Counted from the stretch's first letter, positions 4,616 through 25,576 are shown. The stretch is DNA of 28,449 nucleotides from a virus (IMGVR_UViG_3300030379_000406); one strand, 5' to 3'. A program made the numbers and translations. Notes: generated from the letters alone by a model not told the origin.

Positions 4616-4924
4616 ATGAATTTTGTGATGCAGTGCCTGGTGCCTCCAGGTGACGTTAACCAGTTAACAATTAACGCCGGATACGGGGTATTCCCCTCTG
4701 AACAGGCGCGTAAGGACTGGCAAAACGCCCGCAAAAAACTCTCGAGGGCAAAGGTGAAGAAACCTGCTGTGGTTGATCCGGACCTTATCTGGTCATCACC
4801 TGACGGAGAAATACGTCGCTACGACAGTCGCCTAAACATAATCTGTCGCGAGTGCCGGAAGAGCGAAGTTATGCAGCGCATACTGGCTTTCTATCAGGGT
4901 AATTTTCAGGACGTGGCGCAGTGA
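4616..4924 (+). CDS. Hypothetical protein translationally coupled to the methyltransferase remnant
   Basis: About 102 aa from ATG 4616 (N-terminal part of the 153-aa tracked ORF looks non-coding); stop overlaps the GTG start of the downstream methyltransferase ORF (GTGA). Confidence 0.35.
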   Translation: MNFVMQCLVPPGDVNQLTINAGYGVFPSEQARKDWQNARKKLSRAKVKKPAVVDPDLIWSSPDGEIRRYDSRLNIICRECRKSEVMQRILAFYQGNFQDVAQ

Positions 4925-5367
4925 GTGCACCGGCAACCATTCTTGATATGTGCTGTGGCAGCCGCATGTTCTGGTTCGATAAGTCTGACGAACGGGCGAT
5001 ATTCAGCGATATCAGAAAAGAAGGATACACATTACGCAATGGGAGACGCTTGATTATCAGCCCTGACATTATCGCAGATTTTCGTGCATTATCATTTGCA
5101 GACGCATCTTTTTCGATGGTTGTATTAGACCCTCCGCATCTTGAGAGTGTTGGTGATAACGCCTGGATGGGAAAGAAATATGGACGGCTGAATAAAGATG
5201 CCTGGCGTGATGATTCGCGACAGAGATTTAAAGAAGCCTTTCGGGTGTTGAGGCCGCACGGCGTTCTGATTTTTTAATGGAATGAAACGCAAATACCGGT
5301 AAGCCAGATTCTGGCACTGACAGACAGAAAACCTGTTATCTGTCAACGAACAGGGAAAAAACGATAA
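4921..5367 (+). pseudogene. Phage-type DNA methyltransferase, disrupted (premature TAA at 5275-5277, then frameshift)
   Basis: N-terminal SAM-binding-like motif ILDMCCGSRMF and catalytic-like motif VLDPPH followed by RVLRPHGVLIF; reading frame stays open in-frame past the TAA (WNETQIPVSQILALTDRKPVICQRTGKKR) before a second stop, and further remnant in another frame to about 5410. Confidence 0.55.
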
Positions 5368-5510
5368 AACCCACTGGATTATTTTTATGAAAGAGGCATC
5401 CAGTGAGTAGATTCGTAAGGCTACAGATACGTATATCTGAATAATTAAATTCAGTTCTGTAAATAAAATTTAATCCTTAACCGGATGGATTTCTGCACCC
5501 TCAGAACATC

Positions 5511-5542
5511 AGGAGGCCGCCCGAAAGGGCGGTAGTGAAATG
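5511..5542 (+). promoter_or_regulatory. Translation initiation region: AGGAGG Shine-Dalgarno, 16-nt GC hairpin with GAAA loop, then ATG
   Basis: AGGAGG at 5511-5516; perfect 6-bp stem CCGCCC/GGGCGG with GAAA tetraloop at 5517-5532; ATG at 5540. SD-to-ATG spacing (~23 nt) is only workable if the hairpin folds. Confidence 0.4.
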
Positions 5543-5722
5543 CGAAAGTTCAAAATTATTATTGAAACGGGAATAGCTGGTGGAGATTTTGAGGATGTAT
5601 TCGAAGTGGACGATGACGCAACACCTGAGGAAATTCATGACGGAGCATAAGAAATTTTCTTTAACTACTGCAATTACTCATACCACGAAATAAAAGACGA
5701 TGAGGAAGAACAAAGTGGCTGA
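5540..5722 (+). pseudogene. Small ORF with single in-frame TAA (36 codons + TAA + 23 codons)
   Basis: MRKFKIIIETGIAGGDFEDVFEVDDDATPEEIHDGA-stop-EIFFNYCNYSYHEIKDDEEEQSG; frame stays open across the ochre codon at 5648-5650. Confidence 0.3.
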
Positions 5723-5891
5723 TTTTTGTTCAGCTAAATATAACATCAGTTTTGAAGAGCGGGATGAACTATTAATGGACTATGGTGAGTTACGCGGTGG
5801 AAGTGCTGCTGATGTCGAATCCTAGCGTGATGACTATGAAGCGGGAAAAACTCCGGTCGAAGCATATTGTGATGAGTGGGGCGATGAATGA
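5700..5891 (+). pseudogene. Small ORF with single in-frame TAG (41 codons + TAG + 21 codons)
   Basis: MRKNKVADFCSAKYNISFEERDELLMDYGELRGGSAADVES-stop-RDDYEAGKTPVEAYCDEWGDE; amber codon at 5823-5825; terminal TGA overlaps the ATG of the next ORF (ATGA). Confidence 0.3.
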
Positions 5892-6609: not shown

Positions 6610-6879
6610 ATACAGCGAACTCCATTGGTTTAGTTGGATATTTACTGTGCTGGACAAAAACGGTTTGCGGGGAAATCTTAGTTAAGTAGAATGACTGCGG
6701 GTGCTTGAGGCTATCTGCCTCGGGCATGGACACCAACGGCAGATAGAGAAAAGCCCCAGTTAACATTACGCGTCCTGCAAGACGCTTAACATTAATCTGA
6801 GGCCAATTTCATGCTAGACACATGTAGGTTAGCCTCTTACGTGCCGAAAGGCACGGAGAAGCAGGCTATTGTTAACACC

Positions 6880-8490
6880 AAGCTGTAATGTCCCCTTTGA
6901 ACCATTCTAAAATGTCCCCAGACAATTCTCTGGGGGATTTTTCATGATCAAAGAGACTGTTACGATGAGTCATAAGGAACTCCACCGACTTCAGATTATT
7001 CAGGAACAAGCTGCGGCACGCATTGGCATTTCTATTCGGCAGGTTAAACGTCTGGTGCAACGGTATAGAAATGAAGGGCCTTCTGGTCTGGTTTCCCACC
7101 GACGTGGAAAGCGTCCTAATAATTCCTTTTCTACTGAATTCAGAGCAACAGTAATTTCACTCCTCAAAGGCCGTTACGCTGATTTTGGACCTACGTTTGC
7201 GTGCGAAAAATTGCGCGAGATACACGGTTTATCTTTATCCGTTGAAACTCTCAGAAAGTGGATGATAGAAGAGGGGTTATGGCGTGAACGCCGTCGTAAA
7301 ATTGCCCGTATATATCAACGCCGCATGCGACGACCATCTTACGGTGAACTGATCCAGATTGATGGCTCACCTCATGACTGGTTTGAAAATCGAGGCCCCA
7401 GATGTACACTGATCGTTTTCATTGATGATGCCACCAGTGCGTTGATGGCGTTGCGTTTTGTGCCTGCTGAAACAACCCGGGCTTACATGGAAACCCTCCG
7501 GGGTTACCTTAATGATCATGGCGTACCGCTCGCTCTCTACTCTGATAGACACAGTATATTCAGGGTAAATAACCCAGAGCGGGAAGGTGAGCTGACCCAG
7601 TTCACTCGTGCGATAAAGACACTGGGCATCGAGCCAATCCATGCCAACAGCCCGCAGGCAAAAGGGCGGGTAGAGCGCGCCAATCAGACACTACAGGACA
7701 GGCTGGTCAAAGAAATGCGGCTTCAGAATATCAGTGATATTGAAACAGCAAATGCATGGTTGCCGACCTTTATTGAAGCCTATAACAACCGGTTCGCTAC
7801 GTCGCCTCGTACTACTGATAATGCTCATCTTGATGTGCACCATTCTGAAGAGGAACTGGGTTATATCTTCAGCCTACAGGCGAAGCGCGTTCTGTCTAAA
7901 AATCTCACTTTCCAGTACAAAAGCAGTGCGTTTCAGGTACGCAGTGAGGGCCGGGGATATCGACTTAGGCATTCGGTTGTTACTGTATGCGAGAACTTTG
8001 ACGGTGAAATTAACGTTCTGTATGACGGGAAAGCGCTGGGCTGGGAAAAGTATGTTGATGGCCCGGAGCCTATACCACTGGATGATGAAAAGAGTGTCCA
8101 TGAACGAGTGGATAATGCCCGTATTGATTTACGCTCAAAATACTATGTTAAACCTAAAGCTGACCATCCCTGGCTTACGCGCCGAACGCAAAGTCATCAG
8201 CAAGTTAAGCCCCCGAAGTTACCTAAAAAGAAGCCTGATCCCGATAAAAAAGATTGAAACCAAGATCGATTCGGTTGAGTGCATATCCATTCATAGGGTA
8301 GATTCTTAAGTCGCGTTTCTGGTGTTCATTTTCGGGTGGTTTGTTACTTGTTTTACCGGGGATATGCCAGAAACGCGCTGAGTCAGTCTGGGCGGTGCGC
8401 GTAATGAGGCGTTATGGTAAATAGCCTATGCTAATGTCCGCTAAGAGCAAGAAGCGGAAGTTGGCAGTTTTGTGGACTGTCCCCACAAAA
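6880..8490 (+). mobile_element. Putative insertion-sequence-like element around the rve transposase (boundaries approximate, terminal inverted repeats not identified)
   Basis: Single transposase ORF; short direct repeats TAATGTCC and TGTCCCCA occur on both flanks (6885-6920 and 8433-8486), but I could not define clean terminal inverted repeats. Confidence 0.3.
6944..8257 (+). CDS. DDE-type transposase/integrase with N-terminal HTH and rve (retroviral-integrase-like) catalytic core; IS481/ISNCY-like
   Basis: 437 aa; HTH-like N-terminus (IGISIRQVKRLVQRY); catalytic-core signatures IDGSPHDW, IFIDDATSA, YSDRHSIF, ANSPQAKGRVERANQTLQDRL (D-D-E with the G-x-x-E-R motif); basic Lys/Pro-rich C-terminal tail. 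Confidence 0.7.
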   Translation: MIKETVTMSHKELHRLQIIQEQAAARIGISIRQVKRLVQRYRNEGPSGLVSHRRGKRPNNSFSTEFRATVISLLKGRYADFGPTFACEKLREIHGLSLSVETLRKWMIEEGLWRERRRKIARIYQRRMRRPSYGELIQIDGSPHDWFENRGPRCTLIVFIDDATSALMALRFVPAETTRAYMETLRGYLNDHGVPLALYSDRHSIFRVNNPEREGELTQFTRAIKTLGIEPIHANSPQAKGRVERANQTLQDRLVKEMRLQNISDIETANAWLPTFIEAYNNRFATSPRTTDNAHLDVHHSEEELGYIFSLQAKRVLSKNLTFQYKSSAFQVRSEGRGYRLRHSVVTVCENFDGEINVLYDGKALGWEKYVDGPEPIPLDDEKSVHERVDNARIDLRSKYYVKPKADHPWLTRRTQSHQQVKPPKLPKKKPDPDKKD

Positions 8491-13576: not shown

Positions 13577-13876
13577 AAAAATTCCTTAATACTGATAACT
13601 TGGCGCACTATACACACGTTCCTGAAGAAAGCTATAGTTTTTTGATGGGGTTGAAGATGGCTGGATGTCTAAAATAAACATTGCTTCATATGTTCAACTA
13701 TGCGTTAATGATTGCGTCGGTTTGAAGAACAGACGATATACGAAGTAGTTTACTAAAGCAGTTCTCATTTCAGGTGTTATTCACTTATTCCTTCTTTGAG
13801 TCTCTCCAATTAAGTACGAAGTCGTTTCTGTTATGCAAACCATTTATGCCGAAAGGCTCAAGTTAAGGAATGTAGA

Positions 13877-14092
13877 ATGTCAAATAAAATGACTGGTTTA
13901 GTAAAATGGTTTAACGCTGATAAAGGTTTCGGCTTTATTTCTCCTGTTGATGGTAGTAAAGATGTGTTTGTGCATTTTTCTGCGATTCAGAATGATAATT
14001 ATCGAACCTTATTTGAAGGTCAAAAGGTTACCTTCTCTATAGAGAGTGGTGCTAAAGGTCCTGCAGCAGCAAATGTCATCATTACTGATTAA
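13877..14092 (+). CDS. cspB: Cold-shock protein CspB
   Basis: 71 aa ([71 protein letters not shown]); long 5' UTR typical of csp genes. Confidence 0.95.
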
Positions 14093-14374
14093 AATTCATC
14101 GCTCGTCTGTATACGATAACGAAGAAGGCTGATGCCTGAGTAGAGATACGGACAGAGTAGTGAATATTGGATCTCTTTAATAAAAAGTAAGGAGGTCCAA
14201 TACATGAAACAATGGCTAGCATATTTGGCAAAATCTTAATCAGGAAAAGTATGCTAACCATTGTGGTGAAGTGCAGGTTTGCTGCATGAATAGTTTTACA
14301 GCAGAAGCTAACTGCTGGCATGGCAAAACAAAGTGCGTAAGTGGATGACTCCCACAAAAAGCACCACAATCTCA

Positions 14375-16401: not shown

Positions 16402-16762
16402 GGTAATATTAAATCGGAACATTTACATCGCGGAATGTAAAATTTAAATAAAAAGGACTCTTCCATGAGCCAAAATTCCTGAAATCTTAAGGGTAAGATA
16501 AAAGGTCTTAATCAGAATGACACGCTTTATTAATAAATAAAGCTATTCTTTCATTGCTGTGTTTTTCTTTACAAAAGTAATCCTTGCTATGGGTGGTTAA
16601 TCATGCGTTAATGGTGTTCTGGTTTGTTACAAATTTATCTGAAGCAGTCATTGTTATAATTTTATTATTTGTACCTCTTGAGATTTCCTTGTTGGTTTTT
16701 CTCTCTGATATTTTTTTCGGACCATTCTGCCCAAGGGCTAATTTCTTCAAAAGGTAATAATT

Positions 16763-16975
16763 ATGTCTAACAAAATGACTGGTTTAGTGAAATGGTTTAA
16801 CCCTGAAAAAGGTTTTGGTTTCATCACGCCGAAAGATGGCAGCAAAGATGTGTTTGTCCATTTCTCAGCAATTCAGAGCAACGATTTCAAAACATTAACT
16901 GAGAATCAGGAAGTTGAATTTGGTATTGAGAACGGACCTAAAGGTCCTGCCGCTGTTCATGTAGTGGCGCTTTGA
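16763..16975 (+). CDS. cspI: Cold-shock protein CspI
   Basis: 70 aa ([70 protein letters not shown]). Confidence 0.95.
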
Positions 16976-17645
16976 GGTAGACAATATTACAAACCATATT
17001 CACTTTAGATGCCCGTGTTGTCATGGTTCCCAGTATAGAACATCATCTTTTGATGTTTCTGACATGAATCCTTTCGGGGCAAAATGTATCTTTTGTAAAT
17101 CAATGATGATTACATTTGATAATATTTCACAATACTTAAATGCCAGCCGTCTGTCGTTGGATTTAAAAAAGTGAAAATGAAGGCTCCTTCGGGAGCTTTT
17201 TTGCTTGGTGTCTATTCGATGGATACTCACATACTACGGTAACATCATGAAAAAAATCATAGTTTTTTTTAACTCTGAACCAGCAGTGGTAGTGCCAGCG
17301 ATGACTGGAGTTAACACCATCATGCGTGAATATCCAAATGGCGAAAAAACACACCTTACTGTAATGGCCGCAGGGTTTCCATCTCTGACCGGAGATCATA
17401 AAGTCATTTATGTAGCCGCGGATCGACATGTTACTTCAGAAGAAATTCTGGAAGCAGCAATAAGGCTCTTGAGTTGATTTGATGCTATTGCATTGATAAT
17501 TCAGGAAAATTCTCTTTGTCTGTTTGTGTAAAATTTAGACTATCGTATGTTGATTATTGCGATGTTTCATCTTATCTTTTACACGTTTGCACCATATAAT
17601 CGACTTACTGTGTAACTGGAAAGTCATAACAGACTAAAAGAGGAA

Positions 17646-25001: not shown

Positions 25002-25576
25002 TGGCATTCAGAATGAGTGAACAACCACGGACCATAAAAATTTATAATCTGCTGGCCGGAACTAATGAATTTATTGGTGAAGGTGACGCATATATTCCGC
25101 CTCATACAGGTCTGCCAGCAAACAGTACCGATATTGCACCACCAGATATTCCTGCTGGCTTTGTGGCTGTTTTCAACAGTGATAAGGCATCGTGGCATCT
25201 CGATGAAGACCATCGGGGTAAAACGGTTTATGACGTAGCGTCAGGGGACGCGTTATTTATTTCTGAACTCGGTCCGTTACCGGAAAATGTTACCTGGTTA
25301 TCGCCGGAAGGGGAGTTTCAGAAGTGGAACGGCACAGCCTGGGTGAAAGATGCAGAAGCAGAAAAACTGTTCCGGATCCGAGAGGCGGAAGAAACAAAAA
25401 ACAGCCTGATGCAGGTAGCCAGTGAGCATATTGCGCCACTTCAGGATGCTGTAGATCTGGAAATCGCAACGGAGGAAGAAACCTCATTGCTGGAAGCCTG
25501 GAAAAAGTATCGGGTGTTGCTGAACCGTGTTGATACGTCAACTGCACAGGATATTGAATGGCCAGCACTGCCGTAG
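25001..25576 (+). CDS. tfa: Tail fiber assembly protein Tfa
   Basis: 191 aa ([51 protein letters not shown]...); start overlaps the stf stop (TAATG). Confidence 0.9.

What the first reader, a model, noticed from the sequence alone, without database searches (positions are those of the whole stretch)
5511..5542. Shine-Dalgarno, GC hairpin, then ATG: a structured translation start
AGGAGG (5511-5516) is separated from the ATG (5540) by about 23 nt, too far for direct initiation, but a perfect 6-bp GC stem with GAAA tetraloop (5517-5532) would bring them to normal spacing when folded. This resembles hairpin-bridged initiation regions described for some T4 genes.
Basis: partly seen in the sequence, partly recalled or inferred. 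Interest (0 to 1): 0.45.

Follow-up and report, generated by a model that had tools for sequence, protein, structure and literature searches.

The report
Hairpin-bridged ribosome-binding site, prophage module
A strong ribosome-binding sequence is separated from its start codon by a very stable RNA hairpin that, when folded, restores normal spacing; the same short cassette precedes at least six different small genes in E. coli prophages and occurs in 43% of complete E. coli genomes, although the gene behind this particular copy is dead.

Summary
AGGAGG (5511-5516) is followed by CCGCCC-GAAA-GGGCGG (5517-5532), then UAGUGAA, then ATG (5540). The hairpin is predicted at -15.5 kcal/mol and forms with probability about 1 in context.

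It is not a private feature of one gene. It is the 3' end of a conserved, unannotated intergenic module of about 100 nt (window 5437-5539) in Rac/Qin-like lambdoid prophages. The module occurs in 2355 of 5426 complete E. coli genomes, with up to 5 copies per genome. It is joined to at least six downstream gene families, each starting 6-9 nt (once 11 nt) after the hairpin.

- **Stem conservation:** the stem is kept through U.G wobble changes and one G-C to A-U compensatory change, while the loop varies (GAAA, GGCA, GUCA, GGAA).
- **Natural control:** a Klebsiella homologue of the downstream gene has an ordinary GGAGG-7 nt-ATG with no hairpin.

The best reading is a split, hairpin-bridged ribosome-binding site of the T4 gene 38/25 type. 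It is a new, non-homologous and portable example.

- **Caveats:** there is no experiment, and the covariation statistics are not significant because diversity is low.
- **Local copy:** the DUF7167 gene here is a pseudogene (internal TAA at 5648-5650) in a decaying Qin-like prophage.

The parts
5437..5471 (+). AT-rich 5' part of the conserved intergenic module. It begins at CTGAATAA, which supplies the stop codon of several different upstream genes in relatives. It contains an imperfect inverted repeat, ATTAAATTC 5444-5452 with AAATTTAAT 5466-5474; the second arm runs 3 nt into the next part.
   Evidence: BLAST homology breakpoints fall at window 5437 (query position 158). The alignment of upstream flanks shows at least 5 different upstream genes converging on this point. 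It is the most variable part of the module, with diversity 0.22.
5472..5483 (+). Conserved block AATCCTTAACCG. In other prophages this block plus the following GGAGG is the ordinary RBS (GGAGG, 7 nt, ATG) of a 70-aa gene.
   Evidence: Diversity is 0.042 over 92 unique haplotypes. The use of the left half-module as an RBS is seen in L316, L063 and L046.
5484..5502 (+). Upstream stem-loop HP1. The arms are 5484-5488 and 5498-5502, which is GGAGG(G)/CCCUC in the consensus, with a 9-nt loop. In this window T5486 replaces G and gives a U.C mismatch.
   Evidence: 98.5% of cells are paired in 53 unique modules, with only G.U changes, but the 5' arm was part of the search anchor. In the divergent copies L319 and L320 the stem is intact while 3 of 9 loop bases differ.
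5503..5510 (+). Single-stranded linker AGAACAUC.
   Evidence: It varies among copies (AGAACATC, AAATCATC, AAAACATC, AGAACAGC) without any change of length.
5511..5516 (+). Shine-Dalgarno sequence AGGAGG.
   Evidence: GGAG is invariant in 53 unique modules. Diversity is 0.045. It gives the best anti-SD duplex in the region, -10.3 kcal/mol.
5517..5532 (+). Bridging hairpin HP2: CCGCCC, GAAA, GGGCGG, with G5516.U5533 as a seventh pair.
   Evidence: Energy is -15.5 kcal/mol and pair probability is about 1 in context. Variants are tabulated.
5533..5539 (+). A-rich spacer UAGUGAA, 7 nt, between the hairpin and the start codon.
   Evidence: It contains no GGAG-type SD. Spacers in other gene families are 6-9 nt.
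5540..5722 (+). DUF7167 family gene, start codon 5540-5542. It is a pseudogene here, with an internal TAA at 5648-5650. The reading frame otherwise continues to TGA at 5720-5722.
   Evidence: Pfam PF23768 matches from residue 2. Translation shows one internal stop. PGAP labels the identical sequence of strain 52F4 'DUF7167 family protein, internal stop'. An intact 60-aa homologue is in L002.

Best explanation
The element is a split (non-contiguous) translation initiation region on the + strand mRNA. The 30S subunit pairs with AGGAGG. The 16-nt GC hairpin immediately 3' of it stays folded and protrudes from the ribosome. The start codon then sits an effective 6-9 nt from the SD instead of 22-25 nt.

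The SD-hairpin unit is the 3' end of a conserved intergenic module of about 100 nt in E. coli/Shigella lambdoid prophages. Through recombination within the module, it supplies the translation start for whichever accessory gene lies downstream.

In this window the module is intact apart from one mismatch in the upstream stem. It now precedes a dead DUF7167 gene in a decaying Qin-like prophage.

Shown: the sequence, the predicted stability, conservation, portability and constant post-hairpin spacing. Inferred: that ribosomes use the upstream SD with the hairpin folded. This rests on analogy with T4 genes 38 and 25.
For: 1. Hairpin stability: -15.5 kcal/mol and probability about 1 in all eight contexts folded.

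2. SD strength: the AGGAGG duplex with the anti-SD is -10.3 kcal/mol. The only alternative at canonical distance is the hairpin's own 3' arm at -7.1, which would need about +15 kcal/mol of unfolding.

3. Portability: six downstream families with unrelated N-termini all start close behind the hairpin. DUF7167 starts 7 nt after it, DUF4014 6 nt, MTELT/MAELT 8-9 nt, MQDIK/MQEIK 9 nt, MLTLK 8 nt and MGITK 11 nt. The annotated starts are confirmed by Pfam models that align from residue 1 or 2.

4. Stem variation: C-to-U changes giving U.G occur at four 5'-arm positions, in 20 of 53 unique-haplotype cells. G-C to A-U is seen together with both intermediates. The variant AGGAGA turns the closing G.U pair into A-U.

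5. Loop variation: GAAA, GGCA, GUCA, GGAA, UAAA and AAAA all occur.

6. Divergent copies: L320's coding third positions are only 51% identical to L002. All 9 unpaired differences in the module fall outside the 24 stem nucleotides, which has a hypergeometric probability of about 0.014 by my calculation. The other two differences form a compensatory pair.

7. Constraint: SD diversity is 0.045 and 3'-arm diversity 0.061, against 0.149 at codon position 3.

8. Separability: the SD-hairpin unit also occurs without the upstream module, directly after a 70-aa gene, again before DUF7167 or DUF4014.

9. Natural control: the Klebsiella DUF7167 homologue has GGAGG-CTGAGTG-ATG with no hairpin.

10. Precedent: the mechanism is experimentally established for T4 genes 38 and 25 (PMC3014915; PMC7297116).
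Against: There are no expression data.

The shuffle controls for covariation are not significant, because the copies are 96% identical on average.

About 10% of the roughly 230 fetched copies have weakened stems, weaker than -7 kcal/mol. These counts are not independent. The A.C mismatch variant is common. Isolated phages vB_EcoS-666R9, -673R7 and -613R10 carry a G.G mismatch.

The 5' arm evolves at about the synonymous rate.

The MGITK family has its own GGAG after the hairpin yet keeps the module. One copy (L347) has its first long ORF about 23 nt after the hairpin. The module may therefore be kept for reasons beyond SD bridging.

The predicted accessibility of the SD is only moderate in several contexts.

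The local gene is a pseudogene, so this copy is probably not under selection now.
Confidence: 0.55

Rival explanations
1. Sequestered proximal RBS with a standby site. The real SD is the G-rich 3' arm (GGGCGG) at canonical distance from the ATG. The hairpin represses it. The upstream AGGAGG only holds a 30S subunit on standby until the stem breathes. The hairpin is then an attenuator or conditional switch, not an enhancer.
For: AGGGCGGU gives a predicted anti-SD duplex of -7.1 kcal/mol, starting 13-16 nt before the A of AUG in every family. The 3' arm is more conserved than the 5' arm, 0.061 against 0.143.
Against: Opening a -15.5 kcal/mol stem to use a weaker SD is energetically very unfavourable compared with using the free AGGAGG next to it. 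The compensatory GGGCGG to GGGUGG change alters the putative SD in order to restore pairing. The arm asymmetry is explained by U.G tolerance. GGAG of the upstream SD is invariant, which a mere standby site would not require.
Confidence: 0.12
2. Intercistronic mRNA-stability or processing element. The GC hairpin acts as a barrier to 3'-5' exonucleases or as a processing boundary that insulates neighbouring cistrons, in the manner of REP sequences. Its position between SD and ATG is incidental.
For: The hairpin is kept whatever gene follows, including a gene with its own SD (MGITK). Stable GC hairpins without a U tract are typical of such barriers (my own knowledge).
Against: This does not explain why an invariant strong SD abuts the stem. 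It does not explain why five of six families lack a proximal canonical SD. It does not explain why start codons fall 6-9 nt after the stem at independent recombination joints. It is not exclusive of the main explanation.
Confidence: 0.12
3. Neutral 'linker' or relic. The module is conserved only because it spreads by homologous recombination among prophages and is young. The hairpin has no present function.
For: The module lies exactly at mosaic joints on both sides. It is confined to Escherichia and Shigella. Covariation shuffles are not significant. Many copies lie in cryptic prophages with pseudogenes, as this one does.
Against: The module is about twice as conserved as synonymous sites of the adjacent gene. 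In copies whose coding third positions are only 51-69% identical, both stems are intact and changes fall in loops, linker and spacer. The module is present in inducible or isolated phages such as mEp460, Stx2a phages and vB_EcoS-640R1.
Confidence: 0.13
4. Operator for a trans-acting factor. The hairpin, perhaps with the two GGA-containing elements 27 nt apart, binds a phage or host protein, for example a translational repressor or CsrA, and so controls a set of accessory genes together.
For: The same element precedes many different genes and occurs up to 5 times per genome, as a regulon operator would. Two GGA motifs lie at 5484-5489 and 5512-5516.
Against: The loop sequence is not conserved (GAAA, GGCA, GUCA, GGAA), which argues against sequence-specific loop recognition. 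There is no boxA-like sequence and no Rfam family. No candidate protein has been identified.
Confidence: 0.08

Closest known systems
Split (non-contiguous) ribosome-binding sites of bacteriophage T4 genes 38 and 25 (Gold 1988; Nivinskas et al. 1999; Malys and Nivinskas 2009, as summarised in PMC3014915 and PMC7297116)
   Same: The SD lies 22-27 nt from the AUG and the intervening sequence forms a stable hairpin that reduces the effective spacing to 5-11 nt. Here the spacing goes from 23 to 7 nt. In both cases the hairpin is conserved among close relatives only.
   Different: No sequence relationship to the T4 sites was tested or is expected. The host elements here are temperate lambdoid prophages, not T-even phages. 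The element is not tied to one gene: it is a portable cassette found before at least six gene families and in multiple copies per genome. A second conserved stem lies upstream. There is no experimental proof here.
Non-inhibitory structured translation initiation regions of E. coli thrS, rpmE and fis (cited in PMC7297116)
   Same: A stable stem-loop inside the ribosome-binding region is tolerated and arranges the initiation elements.
   Different: In those cases the SD is at normal distance from the AUG, and the hairpin separates an upstream AU-rich enhancer from the SD. Here the hairpin lies between the SD and the AUG.
Ribosome standby sites next to structured RBSs (de Smit and van Duin model; my own knowledge)
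   Same: A single-stranded ribosome-binding stretch lies next to a stable hairpin close to the start codon.
   Different: In the standby model the hairpin contains the SD or AUG and must open. Here the strong SD and the AUG both lie outside the stem.
Lambda-type nut boxB hairpins (my own knowledge: 5-bp stem, GNRA-like pentaloop, boxA upstream)
   Same: A short GC stem with a G...A loop in an early operon of a lambdoid phage.
   Different: This is a tetraloop, not a pentaloop, and the loop sequence varies. There is no boxA. The element lies directly between an SD and an ATG rather than promoter-proximal. It occurs several times per prophage.
Conserved 'linker' or boundary sequences at mosaic joints of lambdoid phages (Susskind and Botstein modular theory; Juhala et al. 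2000; my own knowledge)
   Same: A short conserved intergenic segment is flanked on both sides by alternative, unrelated genes in different phages.
   Different: Here the conserved segment has a definable RNA anatomy (SD, two stems) with signs of purifying selection, which suggests a function beyond providing homology.

Membership tests
Split / hairpin-bridged RBS (T4 gene 38/25 type; a functional class, not a homology family) | A strong SD too far (more than about 15 nt) upstream of the authentic start codon, with no canonical SD at normal distance | tested here: met
   AGGAGG ends 23 nt before ATG 5540. The start is authenticated by Pfam alignment from residue 2. The spacer UAGUGAA has no GGAG. 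The only SD-like stretch at canonical distance is the stem's 3' arm, at -7.1 against -10.3 kcal/mol.
Split / hairpin-bridged RBS (T4 gene 38/25 type; a functional class, not a homology family) | The intervening sequence folds into a stable hairpin that brings the effective spacing to about 5-11 nt | tested here: met
   The energy is -15.5 kcal/mol and pair probability is 0.87-1.00 in context. The effective spacing is 7 nt here and 6-9 (once 11) nt in other gene families.
Split / hairpin-bridged RBS (T4 gene 38/25 type; a functional class, not a homology family) | The structure is conserved among relatives, with pair-preserving variation | tested here: inconclusive
   95.4% of cells are paired. 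There is one compensatory G-C to A-U change, there are many U.G changes, and the loops vary. Both stems are intact in divergent copies. However, the shuffle controls are not significant and about 10% of copies have weakened stems.
Split / hairpin-bridged RBS (T4 gene 38/25 type; a functional class, not a homology family) | Stem-destabilising mutations lower translation and compensatory mutations restore it | not testable with these tools
   This needs reporter fusions, toeprinting or structure probing.
Intrinsic (Rho-independent) terminator | A GC-rich hairpin followed by a U tract | tested here: not met
   The terminator scan finds nothing at 5511-5545 on either strand. The tail is UAGUGAAAUG on the + strand and CCUCCUGAUG on the - strand.
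Lambdoid nut site (boxA + boxB) | A boxB pentaloop hairpin with a conserved loop, preceded by boxA (CGCUCUUA-like) | tested here: not met
   The loop is a tetraloop and varies (GAAA, GGCA, GUCA, GGAA). No boxA-like sequence is seen in 5490-5516 (the boxA consensus is from my own knowledge).
Any Rfam 15 family | A covariance-model match at or near the gathering score | tested here: not met
   There is no hit at gathering threshold in 5400-5600. At E-values up to 10 there are only chance-level hits: SscA at 16.6 bits against a threshold of 60, and mir-125.
Pfam DUF7167 (PF23768), the downstream ORF | A match above the gathering score over the full model | tested here: met
   The intact homologue scores 49.6 bits over model positions 1-60. 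The window ORF scores 29.9 bits but covers only model positions 1-34 because of the internal stop. It is a member, but a pseudogene.

The most novel reading that the evidence does not exclude
The module is a dedicated, portable 'expression adaptor' for accessory-gene cassettes of E. coli lambdoid prophages. Its conserved sequence provides the homology for swapping cassettes. Its SD-hairpin unit guarantees a ready-made, context-insulated translation start for whatever gene lands downstream. Its repeated copies may place several accessory genes under one post-transcriptional control. This would be a functional analogue of integron attC/RBS logic, built on a split RBS.
Probability: 0.25. Interest if true: 0.65.

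Novelty: new member of a known kind. Interest (0 to 1): 0.45.

Why it matters
Hairpin-bridged ribosome-binding sites are known from very few natural cases, essentially T4 genes 38 and 25. This would be a new, unrelated example.

It is common: 43% of complete E. coli genomes carry it, including Stx2a-converting phages, and it is unannotated. It has been joined naturally to several different genes. That offers a ready-made natural mutant series for testing how ribosomes accommodate structure between the SD and the AUG.

There are practical consequences as well.
- Gene callers mis-start these genes. N-terminally extended DUF7167 proteins that read through the hairpin are in the databases.
- RBS-strength predictors that penalise long SD-AUG spacing would score these genes as untranslated.
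- The element marks mosaic joints, so it bears on how accessory genes are shuffled among lambdoid prophages.

Tried and rejected
- **Terminator or promoter at the hairpin:** none found.

- **Known RNA family:** none at gathering or permissive thresholds.

- **Leader as coding sequence:** some database proteins of 84-93 aa read through the hairpin. I rejected this. The in-frame extension is closed by TAA in the common upstream class. Spacer lengths differ modulo 3 between gene families. P0003 arises from an ATG-to-AGG mutant.

- **A small ORF ending at the UAG/UAA right after the hairpin:** no canonical start codon, and the frame is closed in the window copy (read).

- **A general habit of these prophages:** a scan of all loci fetched up to that point (about 316) for SD, hairpin and ATG found essentially only this module.

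- **More distant copies:** a genome-wide scan over one genome per species found real copies only in E. coli and Shigella flexneri. The metagenome scan added few new variants. The divergent-anchor scan of viral contigs found nothing.

- **K-12:** neither Rac nor Qin of MG1655 carries the element, so the rich K-12 data sets cannot help.

- **Formal covariation test:** not significant.

- **Longer-range structures:** RNAalifold proposed an outer UCCU/AGGA helix that would sequester the SD. Its columns were part of my search anchor, so it remains untested. The alternative stem UUCUG/CAGAA from the single-sequence fold is broken in the common CAAAAC and CAAATC variants, so I rejected it.

- **Covariance model:** R1 was built but superseded by an nhmmer search of all loci.

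- **Literature:** full-text searches for the sequence and for DUF7167 found nothing.

- **In-silico HP1 knock-outs:** these lower predicted SD accessibility from 0.53 to 0.20-0.24. This is weak evidence, and it is specific to the L002 background.

Full report
**Observation**

Folded alone, 5511-5545 forms a 7-bp stem, because G5516.U5533 adds a pair. The loop is GAAA and the energy is -15.5 kcal/mol, with z = -3.26 and 0 of 200 shuffles as stable. The hairpin is also in the MFE and centroid structures of a 91-nt context. In a 170-nt context its pair probabilities are 0.87-1.00.

The 22-mer is unique in the window. A relaxed form of the architecture occurs 0.075 times per shuffled window. One window on its own is therefore only mildly improbable, and the weight of the evidence comes from comparison with other sequences.

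**Genomic context**

The window is a Qin/Rac-like cryptic lambdoid prophage of E. coli. A 100% identical stretch in strain 52F4 lies between dicA/dicC/ydfABC and ydfW/flxA. Rfam finds sok, two cspA-type leaders and IS009 elsewhere in the window.

The ORF starting at 5540 belongs to Pfam DUF7167. The model aligns from residue 2, so the ATG is the authentic start. The ORF is a pseudogene here, with a TAA at 5648-5650 and the frame otherwise open to 5722. PGAP labels the identical sequence 'internal stop'. Intact 60-aa versions are common in other prophages.

**What the element is**

BLAST breakpoints showed that homology often covers only window 5437-5540, or starts only at about 5509. I collected copies in four ways:
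- by the downstream protein;
- by an SD...spacer pattern;
- by an upstream anchor that leaves the hairpin unconstrained;
- by an nhmmer profile.

Together these show a conserved intergenic module of about 100 nt. Its order is:
1. the stop codon of the upstream gene within CTGAATAA;
2. an AT-rich stretch of about 35 nt;
3. AATCCTTAACC;
4. stem HP1, GGAGGG-N9-CCCUC;
5. the linker AGAACAUC;
6. AGGAGG;
7. the hairpin HP2;
8. UA.

At least five different genes end at its left edge.

Six families with unrelated N-terminal sequences begin at its right edge:

| Downstream family | Spacer after hairpin | Note |
|---|---|---|
| DUF7167 | 7 nt | |
| DUF4014 | 6 nt | |
| MTELT/MAELT proteins | 8-9 nt | |
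| MQDIK/MQEIK proteins | 9 nt | C-terminal part related to MTELT proteins |
| 43-aa MLTLK ORF | 8 nt | |
| MGITK helix-turn-helix-like protein | 11 nt | carries its own GGAG |

The 62-nt core occurs in 2355 of 5426 complete E. coli genomes. There are 2992 places, up to 5 per genome, and none is annotated. It is also in 19 phage records, including Stx2a-converting phages, mEp460 and Rac. Among one genome per species, real copies were found only in E. coli and Shigella flexneri. K-12 Rac and Qin lack it.

**Separability of the SD-hairpin unit**

In strain 2013C-4225 and phage ArgO145, the left half of the module (AATCCTGAACTGGAGG, 7 nt, ATG) is the ordinary RBS of a 70-aa gene. The right half (TAA-TGTC-AGGAGG-hairpin-TAGTTAA-ATG) follows that gene directly and precedes DUF7167. 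In other loci the same right half precedes DUF4014. A full module lies 1.1 kb further on in the same prophage, before DUF4014. The SD-hairpin unit therefore travels with gene starts, independently of HP1.

**Evidence for selection on the RNA structure**

Among 53 unique modules, GGAG of the SD is invariant and 95.4% of hairpin cells are paired. The changes seen are:
- C-to-U changes giving U.G at four 5'-arm positions, in 20 cells;
- one G-C to A-U compensatory pair, found in 10 fetched copies including L002, with both intermediates (A.C and G.U) present;
- AGGAGG to AGGAGA, which turns the closing G.U pair into A-U.

These U.G changes preserve pairing only in + strand RNA. The loop is free to vary: GAAA, GGCA, GUCA, GGAA, UAAA and AAAA all occur.

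I compared diversity over 92 unique DUF7167-linked haplotypes, a sample chosen on coding sequence and therefore unbiased for the leader:

| Region | Diversity |
|---|---|
| Codon position 3 | 0.149 |
| SD | 0.045 |
| HP1 | 0.05-0.08 |
| HP2 3' arm | 0.061 |
| HP2 loop | 0.111 |
| HP2 5' arm | 0.143 |

In the most divergent copies, L319 and L320, coding third positions are only 69% and 51% identical to L002. Both stems are nevertheless intact. For L320, all nine unpaired differences fall outside the 24 stem nucleotides, with probability about 0.014 by my hypergeometric calculation. The other two differences are the two sides of one pair.

Against this, the shuffle controls of the pair counts are not significant. 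About 10% of fetched copies have weakened stems. Three isolated phages carry a G.G mismatch.

**Mechanism**

The anti-SD duplex with AGGAGG is -10.3 kcal/mol. The only SD-like stretch at canonical linear distance is the hairpin's own 3' arm at -7.1 kcal/mol, and using it would require melting a -15.5 kcal/mol stem. With the hairpin folded, AGGAGG lies 6-9 nt from the AUG in five of the six families.

A Klebsiella phage homologue of DUF7167 has GGAGG-CTGAGTG-ATG, which is the same layout minus the hairpin.

This is the arrangement shown experimentally for T4 gene 38 (22 to 5 nt) and gene 25 (27 to 11 nt). In those genes, destabilising the stem lowers initiation (PMC3014915; PMC7297116).

I therefore take a split, hairpin-bridged RBS as the most likely function, at about 0.55. 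HP1 may keep the anti-SD-like CCCUC, and the orphan SD-like GGAGGG, out of the way of the true SD. In-silico knock-outs lower predicted SD accessibility from 0.53 to 0.20-0.24. That is weak evidence.

**Rival explanations**

- **Sequestered proximal SD with AGGAGG as a standby site, 0.12.** It is energetically unfavourable. It is contradicted by the compensatory change that alters GGGCGG.
- **Intercistronic stability or processing hairpin, 0.12.** It does not explain the abutting invariant SD or the constant post-hairpin spacing. It is not exclusive of the main explanation.
- **Neutral recombination linker or relic, 0.13.** It is disfavoured by conservation above synonymous sites and by the pattern of change in divergent copies.
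- **Operator for a trans-acting factor, 0.08.** The variable loop argues against it.

A terminator, a promoter, a nut site, any Rfam family and a coding leader were tested and not supported.

**Novelty**

No paper in the searchable library contains the sequence or mentions DUF7167. The mechanism itself is known, so this is a new member of a known kind. It has two unusual properties: portability across gene families, and very high prevalence as an unannotated element.

In this window the copy is probably a relic. The downstream gene is dead, HP1 carries a mismatch at T5486, and the neighbouring ORFs also have premature stops.

Noticed in passing
window 4921-5891: Three consecutive + strand ORFs each carry a premature in-frame stop relative to intact homologues. 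The SAM-dependent methyltransferase has TAA at 5275-5277, whereas a 157-aa homologue in L443 is intact. DUF7167 has TAA at 5648-5650. The next small ORF has TAG at 5823-5825. This fits a decaying cryptic prophage. 34 fetched loci share the same DUF7167 pseudogene allele.
   Followed up: partly
L316 1230-1290 and 1496-1534; L063, L046: The left half of the module (AATCCT[T/G]AAC[C/T]GGAGG, 7 nt, ATG) is the ordinary RBS of a 70-aa gene with no Pfam hit. The SD-hairpin right half follows that gene's stop codon by 4 nt. The full module looks like the two halves joined without the gene. Which form is ancestral is unknown.
   Followed up: partly
L316 1503-1531 and 2566-2604: Two SD-hairpin copies lie in direct orientation 1.1 kb apart in one prophage, and up to 5 copies occur per genome. 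Such repeats could drive deletion or duplication of the accessory genes between them.
   Followed up: no
proteins P0003, P0004, P0010: Database proteins of 84-93 aa are DUF7167 with N-terminal extensions translated through the leader and hairpin (for example ...SLTGGISAPSEHQEAARKGGSE-MRKFK). These are probably gene-caller artefacts caused by the lack of an SD at normal distance. P0003 comes from an ATG-to-AGG mutant.
   Followed up: partly
window 5534-5536; other copies, 2 nt after the hairpin: An out-of-frame GUG (UAGUGAAAUG) or AUG (UAAUGAAAAAUG) sits 1 nt after the hairpin in most copies. It opens mini-ORFs of 4-8 codons that overlap the real start. Its significance is unknown.
   Followed up: no
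window 5444-5452 / 5466-5474: There is an AT-rich inverted repeat (ATTAAATTC ... AAATTTAAT, perfect in L002) at the 5' end of the module, just after the upstream stop codon. A second upstream class has the palindrome GATTTAAATC instead.
   Followed up: no
phage record PP818812.1 (hits H54, H102): 'Actinobacillus phage vB_Apl-pPE4' carries a 100% identical 62-nt module and is 92% identical to the E. coli prophage sequence over 464 nt. The host assignment looks doubtful, or the phage is an E. coli prophage contaminant.
   Followed up: no
window 6699-6870, 13716-14108, 16618-17002, 25344-25542, 6944-8257: Rfam hits to sok antitoxin RNA (hokD locus), two cspA-type thermoregulator leaders and IS009 RNA. 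There is also a 437-aa transposase ORF; an ISNCY family transposase is annotated at the corresponding position in the closely matching record (L001), inserted between the small-ORF cluster and the rest of the prophage.
   Followed up: no
L347 (- strand copy at about 5058) and L210, L259, L312: In a few module copies the hairpin is not followed by a nearby ORF start. In L347 the ATG is about 23 nt downstream. In L210, L259 and L312 unrelated sequence follows directly after GGGCGG. These are probably rearranged or insertion-disrupted copies.
   Followed up: no
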